Sequence record: PV390658.1
Direction: 5' to 3' (one strand)
Length of the DNA: 64,000 nucleotides
Origin: Escherichia phage vB_EcoM_P54
In this document: piece by piece, positions 19,216 to 55,490 of the stretch
Layout: every line of letters begins with the position of its first letter
How positions within the stretch are numbered: position 1 is the first letter of the stretch
Made by a program: the position numbers and the translations under genes
The notes under the pieces: generated by a model
Databases searched by the model: none
Told to the model about the DNA's origin: nothing
What the model saw: only the letters and a program-made list of their open reading frames with translations

Positions 19216-19407
19216 ATGAATAAAGAAGACAAGCATAAAAATGCTGTACGGACTCCTGATGGAAAGGTTCAATCCTTCATCCTGACAGTTGGTGGAAAGC
19301 CGTTTCGTTGCCACTGCGGAGCAAACTGTTTTCATAAACCAGATAAAAATGACTTAGAGCTTTACGCATGTAATGCTTGTAATACTTGGTATCACTCAGA
19401 GGAATAA
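19216..19407 (+). CDS. small Cys-rich zinc-ribbon-like protein (63 aa)
   Basis: CHCGANCFH ... CNACNTW cysteine/histidine pairs. Confidence 0.4.
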   Translation: MNKEDKHKNAVRTPDGKVQSFILTVGGKPFRCHCGANCFHKPDKNDLELYACNACNTWYHSEE

Positions 19408-19408
19408 A

Positions 19409-20512
19409 ATGACAATACTGTACAAACAAAATAAAGACGGCTCTTTTAACGTCTGGTCATGCGTTGCTGTAGGTGACAAAGTTATTACAACCTACGGTAA
19501 AGAAAATGGCAAGATGATGTTTGAAGAGTACACAGCAGAACCTAAAAACATCGGTAAAAAGAATGAGCGTAACGCTGAACAGCAAGCTCTCTTTGAAGTT
19601 GCTGCTAAGTATAAAAAGCAGGTTGACCGTAAAGGCTACGCTTACACAAAAGAGTCTGCACAGAATACTGAGAAGGTAGGTGTACAGCTTGCTCATGATG
19701 CTGCAAAGGTTAGTCATGCAAAGTATCTGAAGTTCCCTGCTGATGCTCAACCGAAACTTGATGGTGTCCGTTGTAGGATTTCAAGGCACTTGAGTATTGG
19801 CAGTGTATTTACAGCATATTCTCGTGAGAATACTGTTTACAAAATCCCTACTGAACTAATACCTGACATTATGGCAATGTTAAGGCTCCACAAAGATGTT
19901 GATGAATTTGATGGAGAGATTTATGCTCATGGGTGGGACTTAGAAGATATCGTCTCCATGATTAAAAATGAAGACAATCCTGACAGACACTTGCTCAAGT
20001 TTTACTGGTACGATATCTGTGACAGTACTAAGACGTGGCCTGAGCGTAGAGATATTATTGAGACTTCACCATTGAATGACTTTAGAGATGGCTGTAAAGT
20101 TGTTCCTGTTAAGTCTCGTCGTGTAAATTCTTGGGAAGAGTTTGATGAAGCCCATGATAAGTGGGTTGAAGCTCAGTTTGAAGGTGCAATGTACCGTTCA
20201 ATCTCTGAAGACTCCTTCTATGAGTGTTGTCACCGTTCATACTTCTTGATTAAGCACAAGAAGATGCACACTGAAGAGTTTAAAGTGACTGGTGTAAAGA
20301 CTGATAAGCGTGGTCATGGCAAGTTCGTTGTAGAGACTCTTCCTAACGTCTTTGTAGATGTCTCATGGAAGACTACTCATGAGAAGAAACAGTATCTTGC
20401 TGAGCATCCTGAAGAGTTTATCGGGAAACCTTTAACGGTTCAGTTCCAGAAGATGACTCGTAAGGGGTCTTTACAGTTCCCTGTTGGGCTGGTTATACGA
20501 GATTATGAATAA
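19409..20512 (+). CDS. ATP-dependent DNA ligase
   Basis: Adenylation motif I KLDGVR; size and layout like T7-type ligases; start set at ATG 19409 behind GAGGA. Confidence 0.8.
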   Translation: MTILYKQNKDGSFNVWSCVAVGDKVITTYGKENGKMMFEEYTAEPKNIGKKNERNAEQQALFEVAAKYKKQVDRKGYAYTKESAQNTEKVGVQLAHDAAKVSHAKYLKFPADAQPKLDGVRCRISRHLSIGSVFTAYSRENTVYKIPTELIPDIMAMLRLHKDVDEFDGEIYAHGWDLEDIVSMIKNEDNPDRHLLKFYWYDICDSTKTWPERRDIIETSPLNDFRDGCKVVPVKSRRVNSWEEFDEAHDKWVEAQFEGAMYRSISEDSFYECCHRSYFLIKHKKMHTEEFKVTGVKTDKRGHGKFVVETLPNVFVDVSWKTTHEKKQYLAEHPEEFIGKPLTVQFQKMTRKGSLQFPVGLVIRDYE

Positions 20513-20518
20513 AAGTTG

Positions 20519-20546
20519 TTGACATAGAAAATTTGGTGAGTATACT
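20519..20546 (+). promoter_or_regulatory. sigma70-like promoter (TTGACA-16-TATACT) embedded in an 8 bp inverted repeat
   Basis: TTGACA at 20519-20524, TATACT at 20541-20546; GGTGAGTA (20535-20542) pairs with TACTCACC (20566-20573). Confidence 0.5.
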
Positions 20547-20619
20547 GAGCAGCATAAACCAACGGGTACTCACCAGCATCACTTAAGAGTCTTCTAAGAA
20601 GGTTTTTAAGTGATGCTCG

Positions 20620-20689
20620 GTCAGGTATGGTGCGGTGGTGTAAGGTGGTGTCAGGTGTAGTATGGTGCGGTGATGTGAGGTATGGGTAG
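20620..20689 (+). repeat. pentanucleotide-periodic tract (GGTNN x14)
   Basis: Reads GGTCA GGTAT GGTGC GGTGG TGTAA GGTGG TGTCA GGTGT AGTAT GGTGC GGTGA TGTGA GGTAT GGGTA. Confidence 0.75.
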
Positions 20690-20767
20690 TTAGTCTCAGC
20701 TACATTAAAATGAGACTTACCTTTTTAAAAGGTCTTTAAACAGGGTATTTTAATAAGGTAGTGTCAG

Positions 20768-20829
20768 GTTAGGTTAGGTGCGTTTTGGTAGGGTAGGGTA
20801 AGGTTCGGTAAGGTATGGGTGGATGGTAG
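20768..20829 (+). repeat. pentanucleotide-periodic tract (GGTNN x12)
   Basis: Reads GGTTA GGTTA GGTGC GTTTT GGTAG GGTAG GGTAA GGTTC GGTAA GGTAT GGGTG GATGG. Confidence 0.75.
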
Positions 20830-20908
20830 TAGCCACGTTAAAAATCTACCAAGTTTCTAAAGAGTCTTCTGTTGAGGGTTCTTTACAAACAACTTAACAA
20901 TCAACTAA

Positions 20909-21514
<606 letters not shown>

Positions 21515-21516
21515 TT

Positions 21517-21957
21517 ATGAATACAAAAGCATTAGCAGCAAAGTTTAGTTACGGTGACACTGTATCACATTCTGAGATGGATACCTTCTTAGGTATTGCG
21601 AAGCCAACTTATCAAGGTGACATTGTTAAGTACGAAGATGAAATGAAGGCTTATGCACTTACACGTCTAAACCGACTTGAGAAGTTTATTGAGAAGCTCC
21701 TTAAAGAAGAGAAGATTTATCTGGTTGCTTCAATGGGTGTTGGTTATCGTGTGGTTGAGCCTAAGCATCAAGCAACTATTGCAAAACGCAAAATGTCTGG
21801 TAAGATTGGTCGTGCTTTAAAGCAAGCCACTCAAGCAATTGAGAATGTGAACACTATGGCACTTAGCCATCAAGAACGTTCACGACTGATTGAACAGCAA
21901 AACCATTTAGCTGCTATGAAAGCTAACATTAACAAGCAACGTAGAAAACCTTTCTAA
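21517..21957 (+). CDS. hypothetical protein (146 aa), cassette gene 2
   Basis: ORF track; followed by a terminator hairpin at 21969-21992. Confidence 0.5.
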   Translation: MNTKALAAKFSYGDTVSHSEMDTFLGIAKPTYQGDIVKYEDEMKAYALTRLNRLEKFIEKLLKEEKIYLVASMGVGYRVVEPKHQATIAKRKMSGKIGRALKQATQAIENVNTMALSHQERSRLIEQQNHLAAMKANINKQRRKPF

Positions 21958-21968
21958 GTTGACTAGGT

Positions 21969-21992
21969 AGCCTCTTCGGAGGCTCCTTTTTA
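21969..21992 (+). terminator. rho-independent terminator after cassette gene 2
   Basis: AGCCTC-ttcg-GAGGCT hairpin followed by CCTTTTT. Confidence 0.65.
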
Positions 21993-22020
21993 AAAGGTCT
22001 TTAAGAGGGTCTTTTAATAA

Positions 22021-22090
22021 GGCTCGGCAATGTTCGGCATGGTCTGGTATAGTCCGGTGCTGTTCGGCGTGGTAAGGTGAGGTATGGGTA
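22021..22090 (+). repeat. pentanucleotide-periodic tract (GGYNN x14)
   Basis: Reads GGCTC GGCAA TGTTC GGCAT GGTCT GGTAT AGTCC GGTGC TGTTC GGCGT GGTAA GGTGA GGTAT GGGTA. Confidence 0.75.
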
Positions 22091-22158
22091 GTTAATCGGA
22101 GCTACATTAAAATTCGATTACATCACTTAAGAGTCTTCTAAGAGGATTTTTAAGTGTT

Positions 22159-22218
22159 GTGAGGCGAGGTACGGTCGGGTATGGCTATGTCTGGTATGGT
22201 TTGGTATGGAAGGATGGC
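22159..22218 (+). repeat. pentanucleotide-periodic tract (GYNNG x12)
   Basis: Reads GTGAG GCGAG GTACG GTCGG GTATG GCTAT GTCTG GTATG GTTTG GTATG GAAGG ATGGC. Confidence 0.7.
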
Positions 22219-22260
22219 AGCAGCCTTATAAAAAATCTGCCAAATAAGCTATAAAATCTG

Positions 22261-22295
22261 TTGACAAGTCAGGTGTTATAGCTTATTTTTATACT
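22261..22295 (+). promoter_or_regulatory. putative promoter with TTGACAAG box flanked by an 11 bp inverted repeat
   Basis: TTGACA 22261-22266; candidate -10 TATTTT (17 nt spacer) or TATACT (23 nt spacer); ATAAGCTATAA / TTATAGCTTAT brackets the -35. Confidence 0.4.
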
Positions 22296-54909: not shown

Positions 54910-54997
54910 TGGTGTGCCGTGTAGGAGTCGAACCTACCGAGTCTCAATGACAAGGGATTTACAGTCCCCACCGCTACCATCTACGGGATAACGACAC
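54910..54997 (-). tRNA. tRNA-Tyr (anticodon GUA), long variable arm
   Basis: 88 nt; anticodon stem GGGA/TCCC with loop CTGTAAA; long extra arm; T-arm GTAGGTTCGACTCCTAC; CCA encoded. Confidence 0.7.
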
Positions 54998-55006
54998 ATT
55001 TAAATT

Positions 55007-55083
55007 TGGCGGTTAGTCAGGGATTCGAACCCTGTGCCATTCGCTTAACAGGCGACCGCACATACCTTATGTGCTTCCTAACC
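55007..55083 (-). tRNA. tRNA-Asn (anticodon GUU)
   Basis: T-arm CAGGGTTCGAATCCCTG, D-stem GCAC/GTGC, anticodon loop CTGTTAA, CCA encoded. Confidence 0.7.
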
Positions 55084-55160
55084 TTAATACATTGCCAGAC
55101 CGTGTTTTTTCTTTTATCCGCAAAAAGTATTTTGTTGCTGAATACGGTCTTCTGCAAAAT

Positions 55161-55237
55161 TGGAGGCGGGTGCAGGAGTCGAACCTGCCGATACCATGCT
55201 AATGAGACATGTGAGACGCCCTTTCTCTATACCCGCA
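55161..55237 (-). tRNA. tRNA with anticodon CAU (second copy; Met, initiator or Ile-lysidine type)
   Basis: T-arm GCAGGTTCGACTCCTGC, anticodon stem CATGT/GCATG with loop CTCATTA, CCA encoded. Confidence 0.6.
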
Positions 55238-55328
55238 ATTCTTAATGACCAGACCAAATCTCTTCTTTGTCCGATTTACCTTCAGATGTATAAGATTAAG
55301 TTTGCTGTAATTGGTCTTCTGTCAAAAC

Positions 55329-55406
55329 TGGCGTTCCAGAAGGGATTTGAACCCTCAGATATCCACTTTGAAAGAGTGGTGACTATACCATTTTGTCTAC
55401 TGGAAC
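55329..55406 (-). tRNA. tRNA-Glu (anticodon UUC)
   Basis: Acceptor GTTCCAG/CTGGAAC, T-loop TTCAAAT, anticodon stem CCACT/AGTGG with loop CTTTCAA, CCA encoded. Confidence 0.75.
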
Positions 55407-55413
55407 ATTAATT

Positions 55414-55490
55414 TGGTCTCTGTTGGAGGACTTGAACCTCCGGCCTTACCGCCCCAAACGGAACGCTCTACCAAGCTGAGCTAAACAGAG
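55414..55490 (-). tRNA. tRNA-Pro (anticodon UGG)
   Basis: Acceptor CTCTGTT/AACAGAG, canonical D-arm GCTC-AGCTTGGTA-GAGC, T-arm GGAGGTTCAAGTCCTCC, anticodon loop TTTGGGG, CCA encoded. Confidence 0.75.

What the first reader, a model, noticed from the sequence alone, without database searches (positions are those of the whole stretch)
20692..20717. Hairpins with identical loops and compensatory stem changes between the two element copies
H2 has the same 12 nt loop GCTACATTAAAA in both copies but different 7 bp stems (A: AGTCTCA/TGAGACT; B: AATCGGA/TTCGATT, one G-U). H5 shows GGTAG/CTACC in A (20825-20850) versus GGCAG/CTGCC in B (22216-22241) around a similar A-rich loop. Pairing preserved through covarying substitutions is strong evidence that the structure is selected, which points to functional RNA or DNA hairpins (protein-binding operators, processing sites or sRNA) rather than repeat debris.
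Basis: seen in the sequence. Interest (0 to 1): 0.75.

Follow-up and report, generated by a model that had tools for sequence, protein, structure and literature searches.

The report
Guide-RNA tails of a phage VIPR system
The hairpins are real and under selection, but they are the 3' pseudoknot "tails" of four guide RNAs (vrRNAs) of a VIPR system, an RNA-guided DNA-silencing system of Felix O1-like phages that two 2026 preprints already describe.

Summary
Four homologous hairpins (20692-20717, 20825-20850, 22094-22119, 22216-22241) keep their loops while their stems change in a compensating way.

They are not free-standing hairpins. Half of each "loop" pairs with four bases upstream, which makes an H-type pseudoknot. 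Each pseudoknot ends a tract of 10-15 NNGGY pentamers.

Applying that rule, three of the four guides match genes of an E. coli satellite element: 26/26, 22/24 and 21/24 NN bases, with the skipped base at the codon wobble position. Other spacings and shuffled guides reach at most 21.

Verdict: a real, functional RNA structure that is already known. What may be new is small: vrRNAs in phages that lack vipr, and conserved spacer hairpins between the vrRNAs.

The parts
20519..20546 (+). Sigma-70-type promoter (TTGACA, 16 nt spacer, TATACT; 11 of 12 matches) just after the DNA ligase stop codon. It presumably drives the upstream vrRNA pair and vipr-vap1.
   Evidence: The same site is annotated as a promoter in phage AYO145A.
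20575..20617 (+). Leader hairpin IR1, about 20 bp with several G-U pairs. Its 3' arm runs into the first pentamers of vrRNA A1.
   Evidence: (I2). The G-U and U-G pairs are invariant and can pair only in + strand RNA.
20612..20717 (+). vrRNA A1: 15 NNGGY pentamers (20612-20686; the first comes from IR1 and the last is the invariant ATGGG), then an alpha-type pseudoknot tail. Stem 1 is 20686-20689 with 20700-20703; stem 2 is 20692-20698 with 20711-20717. This tail is the finding itself.
   Evidence: The guide matches a satellite tape-measure gene at 26/26 internal NN bases.
20720..20758 (+). Spacer hairpin IR2 between vrRNA A1 and A2 (CCTTTTTAAAAGG...TTTTAATAAGG).
20755..20850 (+). vrRNA A2: 13 pentamers (20755-20819, one of them degenerate, GCGTT), then a gamma-type tail. 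Stem 1 is GTGG 20819-20822 with CCAC 20833-20836; stem 2 is GGTAG 20825-20829 with CTACC 20846-20850.
   Evidence: The guide matches a satellite tape-measure gene at 22/24.
20927..21514 (+). vipr: 195-aa RAMP (Cas7-like) protein that polymerises on the vrRNA, one protomer per pentamer.
21517..21957 (+). vap1: 146-aa VIPR accessory protein.
   Evidence: 144/146 identical to the SUSP1 protein. The function (it enhances restriction) is taken from the preprint.
21969..21984 (+). Intrinsic terminator-like hairpin (AGCCTC TTCG GAGGCT followed by a T run) after vap1.
21986..22023 (+). Spacer hairpin IR2 that precedes vrRNA B1.
22019..22119 (+). vrRNA B1: 14 pentamers (22019-22088), then a beta-type tail. 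Stem 1 is 22088-22091 with 22102-22105; stem 2 is AATCGGA 22094-22100 with TTCGATT 22113-22119.
   Evidence: The guide matches a satellite hypothetical gene at 21/24 on the antisense strand, with the skipped base at wobble.
22120..22160 (+). Spacer hairpin IR1 between vrRNA B1 and B2.
   Evidence: (I4).
22156..22241 (+). vrRNA B2: 11 pentamers (22156-22210), then a delta-type tail. Stem 1 is AAGG 22210-22213 with CCTT 22224-22227; stem 2 is GGCAG 22216-22220 with CTGCC 22237-22241.
   Evidence: No target was found.
22242..22289 (+). AT-rich inverted repeat followed by a T run. It holds the -35 box of the next promoter (TTGACA, 17 nt spacer, TATTTT), which serves the downstream 127-aa gene.
   Evidence: (I3).

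Best explanation
The hairpins are stem 2 of an H-type pseudoknot that forms the constant 3' tail of four vrRNA genes of a type II VIPR system (SUSP1 clade) in a Felix O1-like phage.

Each vrRNA is transcribed from the + strand. It consists of 10-15 NNGGY pentamers followed by a tail of about 35 nt.

Vipr, a Cas7-like RAMP protein encoded between the two vrRNA pairs, binds one GGY per protomer and forms a helical filament. This leaves the NN dinucleotides free to pair with double-stranded DNA while skipping every third target base. [quoted passage not shown] Binding represses transcription of the target.

The targets here are genes of an E. coli chromosomal satellite element that presumably parasitises the phage.

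Shown here: the anatomy, the covariation, the protein identity and fold, and the target matches. Taken from the preprints, which studied SUSP1: expression as RNAs of about 100 nt, co-purification with Vipr, the filament structure, the pseudoknot cap and the repression. Inferred: that this phage's copies behave the same way.
For: (1) The pentamer profile over 61 distinct tracts is G 80% at position 3, G 98% at position 4 and T/C 92% at position 5, with positions 1-2 free. Tracts hold 10-22 pentamers, and tract length changes only in steps of five.

(2) Pseudoknot: stem 1 is GTAG/CTAC, GTGG/CCAC or AAGG/CCTT, 100% paired, with 3 of 4 pairs covarying. Stem 2 is 89% paired, with 6 of 7 pairs covarying. 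Slid controls give 28-39% paired.

(3) Vipr is 192/195 and Vap1 144/146 identical to the SUSP1 proteins. The residues the preprint names as GGY contacts (H17, E71, M72, R138, C173, D177, W178, R179) are all present in the window protein (sequence).

(5) With the one-base-skip rule, guides A1, A2 and B1 match satellite genes at 26/26, 22/24 and 21/24 NN bases, with the skipped base at wobble. Skips of 0, 2 or 3 give at most 18, and 300 order-shuffles give at most 21.

(6) Across 66 guides from 20 phages, 43 reach at least 80% and 25 reach at least 90% under skip 1. No guide reaches 90% under any other skip.

(7) The preprints describe this exact architecture in SUSP1, which is my locus L254 and is syntenic with the window.
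Against: No expression or binding data exist for this particular phage. Guide B2 has no identified target. The covariation rests on only four tail types. A terminator (21969-21984) lies upstream of the B pair, so transcription of B1 and B2 needs read-through or a promoter I did not detect. For the alpha tail, RNAfold prefers a nested extension (GGUA/UACC) over stem 1, although that extension is not conserved in the other three types. Both key papers are preprints.
Confidence: 0.93

Rival explanations
1. The repeated units exist mainly as recombination modules, like the promoter-early stem-loop (PeSL) cassettes of T4-type phages (a resemblance recalled from memory, not tested). Homologous intergenic repeats flanking vipr-vap1 would mediate gain and loss of the cassette, and the hairpins would be incidental.
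For: Felix O1 (FO1a), skuden, UAB_69 and KEP1 lack both genes and have a fused, shorter repeat region at the same site. Only 117 phage records carry a Vipr at 90% identity or more, against 257 records that match the locus. Unit types are shuffled between phages.
Against: Recombination does not explain the strict GGY periodicity, the covarying pseudoknot, or the in-frame matches of the NN code to satellite genes. Recombination between the arrays is best seen as a side effect of their similarity.
Confidence: 0.04
2. The hairpins are ordinary cis-regulatory signals: intrinsic terminators, DNA cruciforms or operators for a phage repressor, or RNase processing sites.
For: The alpha tail is followed by TACCTTTTT. 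TransTermHP-based annotation of phage ASO1B places terminators in this region. A Cro/CI-type regulator gene lies about 1 kb downstream.
Against: Only one terminator-like site was found, and it is not one of the four hairpins. The beta, gamma and delta tails have no T run. The invariant G-U pairs in the neighbouring IR hairpins and the G-U pair in beta stem 2 point to + strand RNA rather than DNA. A loop that pairs with upstream bases is not a feature of terminators or operators.
Confidence: 0.02
3. The units are a decoy or antitoxin RNA, such as a type III toxin-antitoxin ToxI-like pseudoknot repeat placed upstream of a toxin gene.
For: The order promoter, tandem pseudoknot-containing repeats, then an ORF of about 195 aa resembles the toxIN layout as I recall it (not tested). 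The loop contains AAAAU.
Against: The units are about 130 nt, not 34-45 nt. The ORF has a RAMP/Cas7 fold, not a ToxN/AbiQ fold. There are no PADLOC hits. Units also follow the genes and occur in phages that lack them.
Confidence: 0.01

Closest known systems
VIPR type II system of Escherichia phage SUSP1: the vrRNA 3' tail pseudoknot (bioRxiv 10.64898/2026.04.26.720920 and 10.64898/2026.04.26.720927)
   Same: Same locus position (DNA ligase, vrRNA, vipr, vap1, vrRNA array). Vipr is 98% and Vap1 99% identical. Same GGY/NN pentamer tracts, same tail types, same one-base-skip targeting of an E. coli satellite.
   Different: The array layout is 2 + 2 vrRNAs here, against 1 + 3 in SUSP1. The guide (NN) sequences differ, so the individual target sites differ. 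Nothing differs in kind.
Class 1 CRISPR crRNA with its repeat-derived handle, bound by a Cas7 backbone filament
   Same: A variable guide is capped by a constant structured end. A RAMP protein polymerises along the RNA, and its thumb disrupts pairing at a fixed period. The predicted fold matches Csm3 and Cmr4.
   Different: The guide is noncontiguous (two of every five RNA bases read two of every three DNA bases). There is no repeat-spacer array. According to the preprint, VIPR loci typically hold only vipr and vap, and the system is phage-encoded and acts by repression rather than cleavage.
TRAP binding sites (GAG/UAG triplets with 2-3 nt spacers) in Bacillus trp leaders
   Same: A conserved triplet recurs about every 5 nt, with one protein subunit per repeat. 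This was my working analogy before I found the preprint (recalled from memory, not tested).
   Different: TRAP is a closed ring that sequesters RNA for attenuation. The spacer bases carry no information there and no DNA is recognised. I did not search for a TRAP-like protein in the window.
Phage T2/T4 gene 32 mRNA leader pseudoknot
   Same: A compact H-type pseudoknot with a 7-bp stem 2, a 1-2 nt loop 1 and a 7-nt A-rich loop, placed next to an unstructured protein-binding lattice (geometry recalled from memory, not tested).
   Different: That element is a translational autoregulatory site at the 5' end of an mRNA. This one is the 3' cap of a trans-acting guide RNA.

Membership tests
VIPR system, type II (SUSP1 clade) | A vipr gene encoding a minimal RAMP-fold protein (RRM core, glycine-rich loop, thumb). 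Clade membership is set at more than 90% identity to SUSP1 Vipr. | tested here: met
VIPR system, type II (SUSP1 clade) | Residues that hold the GGY motif (H17, R138, D177, W178, R179, C173, E71, M72 in SUSP1). | tested here: met
   All are present at the same positions in the window protein (sequence, residue list). The preprint names T175; both SUSP1 and the window protein have V175 in my translations.
VIPR system, type II (SUSP1 clade) | An adjacent vap accessory gene. | tested here: met
   The 146-aa ORF at 21517-21957 is 144/146 identical to the SUSP1 vap1 product.
VIPR system, type II (SUSP1 clade) | vrRNA genes made of YNNGG tandem repeats (9-16 in the preprint), with GGY conserved and NN hypervariable. 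| tested here: met
   There are four tracts of 11-15 pentamers in the window, and they are the only such runs in 64 kb. Profile: G 80%, G 98%, Y 92%. The NN positions differ almost completely between phages whose locus is 92-96% identical.
VIPR system, type II (SUSP1 clade) | A constant 3' tail of about 40 nt that folds into a pseudoknot. | tested here: met
   Found independently before I read the paper. Stem 1 is 100% paired and stem 2 is 89% paired, with 9 of 11 pairs covarying. Cryo-EM of the SUSP1 tail is reported.
VIPR system, type II (SUSP1 clade) | Guides match natural DNA targets under the one-base-skip rule (at least 80% NN match), typically in a competing mobile element. | tested here: met
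   A1 matches at 26/26, A2 at 22/24 and B1 at 21/24 in satellite genes, with the skipped base at wobble. B2 has no match.
VIPR system, type II (SUSP1 clade) | vrRNAs are expressed as RNAs of about 100 nt, co-purify with Vipr and repress target transcription. | not testable with these tools
   Shown for SUSP1 in the preprints. Here there is only a consensus promoter.
CRISPR array with crRNA | Identical short direct repeats that separate contiguous unique spacers of similar length. | tested here: not met
   The units are about 130 nt, with four different tails and hairpin spacers. The variable information is interleaved with GGY every 5 nt. No Rfam family other than tRNA reaches its gathering threshold.
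Intrinsic (rho-independent) terminator | A G+C-rich hairpin followed directly by a U run. | tested here: not met
   The scan found one site (21969-21984), and it is none of the four hairpins. Three of the four tails have no T run.
Type III toxin-antitoxin (ToxIN-like) | Tandem repeats of 34-45 nt upstream of a ToxN/AbiQ-family endoribonuclease. | tested here: not met
   The unit size is about 130 nt. The ORF has a RAMP fold. No PADLOC match.

The most novel reading that the evidence does not exclude
About half of Felix O1-like phages have lost vipr-vap1 but keep one or two intact vrRNA genes. In KEP1, whose whole genome has no vipr or vap1 homologue, these orphan guides still match satellite genes at 36/40 and 19/20 NN bases. 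The orphans may be functional without a Vipr encoded in cis. They could borrow Vipr from a co-infecting VIPR-positive phage, as the vipr-less satellites must do for their own vrRNA, or they could act as decoys that titrate a competitor's Vipr. Separately, the conserved G-U-rich hairpins between vrRNAs could be the maturation signals, which the preprint text I read does not describe.
Probability: 0.2. Interest if true: 0.5.

Novelty: already known. Interest (0 to 1): 0.3.

Why it matters
VIPR is a newly reported mode of RNA-guided DNA recognition and is proposed to be ancestral to CRISPR. Recognising that this window carries a complete VIPR locus explains the puzzling GGT-rich intergenic repeats of Felix O1-like phages. 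GenBank records currently annotate those repeats as small hypothetical ORFs, terminators, repeat regions or possible StbAB binding sites.

It also predicts which E. coli satellite genes this phage silences. For the finding as submitted, the value is confirmation. Sequence analysis alone recovered the pentamer code, the pseudoknot and the targeting rule, which independently supports the preprints. It does not reveal a new kind of element.

Tried and rejected
Two IMG/VR scans with conserved 14-mers returned mostly chance hits in unrelated contigs and gave no useful homologues.

Rfam gave only tRNAs at gathering thresholds and only noise at E up to 10. Pfam and PADLOC found nothing for Vipr or Vap1, and PHROGs gave only families of unknown function.

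Before I found the preprint I considered several readings of the GGT tracts:
- A TRAP-like ring-protein site.
- A Rho rut site on the ACC-rich minus strand.
- An R-loop-prone origin next to the replication genes.
- A cluster of primase recognition sites.
- Two-tetrad G-quadruplexes.
- RecA- or Chi-like recombination tracts.
- boxA/nut-like antitermination signals (the motif GGTCTTTAA resembles GCTCTTTAA).
- A ToxI-like antitoxin.

None of these explains the combination of an invariant G every 5 nt, free NN positions, length changes only in steps of five, and in-frame matches to satellite genes. I dropped them all.

Literature searches on Felix O1 transcriptomics and repeats found nothing relevant. 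The PhageMaP paper on Bas63 does not discuss this locus in the passages I retrieved.

The search for a target of guide B2 failed, both in four satellite copies and in IMG/VR by exact pattern.

The two IR hairpin alignments are too conserved to show covariation, so their structure is supported only by folding energy and by the strand-specific G-U pairs.

Full report
**What the window is.** The region belongs to a Felix O1-like myophage (Ounavirinae). A 2-kb query around the finding matches 257 phage records, the best at 95.6% identity. The finding lies in the intergenic region after the DNA ligase gene (19373-20512; Pfam hits). A second, related intergenic region lies 1.3 kb downstream. Between them are two ORFs of 195 and 146 aa that Pfam and PADLOC do not recognise and that PHROGs places only in families of unknown function.

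**The observation.** The four hairpins (20692-20717, 20825-20850, 22094-22119, 22216-22241) align with each other without gaps. They are therefore four paralogues of one module. Taken one at a time they are only modestly stable, with z-scores of -0.2 to -2.3 against shuffles. Thermodynamics alone would not make the case.

**Anatomy of the units.** Each intergenic region holds two tandem units. Each unit has three parts: a long AT-rich hairpin with several G-U pairs, a G+T-rich and C-poor tract, and then the hairpin of the finding. I fetched the same locus from 19 other phages.

The tracts proved to be strict pentamer arrays. Over 61 distinct tracts, position 4 is G in 98%, position 3 is G in 80%, and position 5 is T or C in 92%. 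Positions 1-2 are free. Tract length varies only in steps of five, from 10 to 22 pentamers. The free positions differ almost completely between phages whose locus as a whole is 92-96% identical.

**The tails are pseudoknots.** I found 74 tail modules, and they fall into exactly four types. The conserved loop is not a plain loop. Its 5' half pairs with four bases just upstream of the stem, and this pairing covaries between types: GTAG/CTAC in alpha and beta, GTGG/CCAC in gamma, AAGG/CCTT in delta.

On the 22 distinct sequences, stem 1 is 100% paired with 3 of 4 pairs covarying, and stem 2 is 89% paired with 6 of 7 pairs covarying. Sliding the partner column by 1-3 positions drops pairing to 28-39%.

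Variation within a type falls in the loops and junctions. Stems vary in only two places: in beta, a G-U pair becomes G-C in two phages, and one gamma copy in Moogle has a G-to-A change at the base of stem 2. The caveat is that only four independent types exist.

[quoted passage not shown] It describes VIPR systems with three components:
- a RAMP-fold protein, Vipr;
- an accessory protein, Vap;
- vrRNAs made of 9-16 YNNGG repeats plus a constant 3' tail, which forms a pseudoknot in the SUSP1 clade.

Its reference locus is Escherichia phage SUSP1. I had already fetched that phage as L254, and it is syntenic with the window. [quoted passage not shown]

**Membership tests.**
- The 195-aa ORF is 192/195 identical to SUSP1 Vipr, and the 146-aa ORF is 144/146 identical to Vap1.
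- All residues named as GGY contacts are present in the window protein.
- The four NNGGY runs are the only ones in the 64-kb window.

**Targets.** The vrRNA tail sequence matches 152 E. coli chromosomes. It lies in an island of about 12 kb that encodes a serine recombinase, a baseplate protein, a tape-measure protein and small hypothetical proteins. The island is inserted in the DUF72 gene between yecD and yecN, or between tonB and yciI. Related sequence occurs in 547 of 5,426 genomes.

I scanned four copies of this satellite with the published rule, in which the NN dinucleotides are joined by one skipped base:
- Guide A1 matches the tape-measure gene at 26/26 internal NN bases.
- Guide A2 matches the same gene at 22/24. 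Both mismatches sit at its one degenerate pentamer.
- Guide B1 matches a small hypothetical gene at 21/24, on the antisense strand.

In all three cases the skipped base is the codon wobble position. Skips of 0, 2 or 3 reach at most 18. Three hundred shuffles of guide order reach at most 21, and none reaches the observed score of its own guide. Guide B2 has no match.

Over 66 guides from the 20 phages, 43 reach at least 80% and 25 reach at least 90% under skip 1. None reaches 90% under any other skip. This reproduces the preprint's rule from independent data.

**Mechanism.** Shown here are the gene content, the pentamer code, the pseudoknot covariation, the RAMP fold and the satellite targets. 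Taken from the preprints, which studied SUSP1, are these points: the vrRNAs accumulate as RNAs of about 100 nt; Vipr polymerises on them and sequesters each GGY; the NN bases pair with DNA while skipping every third base; the pseudoknot caps the 3' end; and binding represses transcription. Inferred: this phage's four vrRNAs work the same way against its satellite.

The role of the tail beyond capping the RNA is not stated in the passages I read. The cryo-EM work does report that the subunits nearest the pseudoknot (8-12) are resolved in all classes.

**Verdict.** The element is already described, for proteins 98-99% identical, in two 2026 preprints, so I rate it as already known.

**What is left over.**
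- Vipr-less relatives keep vrRNAs: Felix O1/FO1a, skuden, UAB_69 and KEP1. Only KEP1 was checked over its whole genome. KEP1's guides still match the satellite at 36/40 and 19/20.
- The hairpins between vrRNAs are strongly conserved, and their invariant G-U pairs fit + strand RNA only. They could be processing signals.
- Tail types are tied to position. Gamma always lies just before vipr, and delta is always the last unit before the downstream promoter.

Noticed in passing
L249 (FO1a/Felix O1), L250 (skuden), L251 (UAB_69), L252/L263/L264 (KEP1): These phages lack vipr and vap1 at this locus but keep one or two vrRNA genes between the ligase and the 127-aa gene. The whole KEP1 genome has no vipr or vap1 homologue (tblastn E above 1), yet its two guides match satellite genes at 36/40 and 19/20 NN bases. 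The single Felix O1 guide has no match (14/20).
   Followed up: partly
window 20575-20617, 20720-20758, 21986-22023, 22120-22160: Conserved hairpins of 16-20 bp lie before each vrRNA, and their 3' arms overlap the first pentamers. They contain invariant G-U and U-G pairs that would be mismatches on the minus strand. In three phages (L002, L247, L256) the IR1 loop carries an insertion of about 22 nt. They may be maturation signals; the preprint text I read does not mention them.
   Followed up: partly
L259-L262 (E. coli chromosomes), e.g. L261 9033-21082: A satellite-like island of about 12 kb encodes a serine recombinase, a baseplate protein, a tape-measure protein, an HNH endonuclease and small hypothetical proteins. 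It is inserted in the DUF72 gene between yecD and yecN, or between tonB and yciI. Related sequence occurs in 547 of 5,426 complete E. coli genomes, and copies are often riddled with IS elements. L257, L258, L259 and L262 each carry one vrRNA with a gamma-type tail; none was detected in L260 or L261. No annotated gene resembles vipr, but this was not searched directly.
   Followed up: partly
all loci: Tail types are tied to position. Gamma is always the unit just upstream of vipr, and delta is always the last unit before the downstream promoter. Alpha and beta occupy internal positions, and their number varies (two to five vrRNAs per VIPR-positive phage).
   Followed up: no
L001 3206-3216; L241 2040-2270 and 2565-2672; L251 2153-2367; L003 1772-1805 and 3244-3288: Public records annotate the vrRNA region in several other ways: an 11-bp "possible binding site of StbAB" (KhF3), small hypothetical ORFs on either strand (LMP34, UAB_69, VSe11), terminators (ASO1B) or bare repeat_region features (bumzen, garuso). 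These are probably misannotations of vrRNA genes.
   Followed up: no
window 49842-55490, minus strand: A cluster of 23 tRNA genes, as expected for a Felix O1-like phage.
   Followed up: no
window 20780-20784 (pentamer GCGTT in vrRNA A2): The one pentamer in A2 that has lost its GG is also the only position where the guide mismatches its best target (both bases). This suggests that degenerate repeats do not contribute to recognition.
   Followed up: no
(phage collection): Distant Vipr homologues (22-44% identity) occur in Gordonia, Mycobacterium and Pseudomonas (LESphi2) phages and in Listonella phage phiHSIC. The protein search found 520 relatives, all unnamed or hypothetical and without Pfam domains, apart from one JGI label of copper chaperone CopZ.
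   Followed up: no
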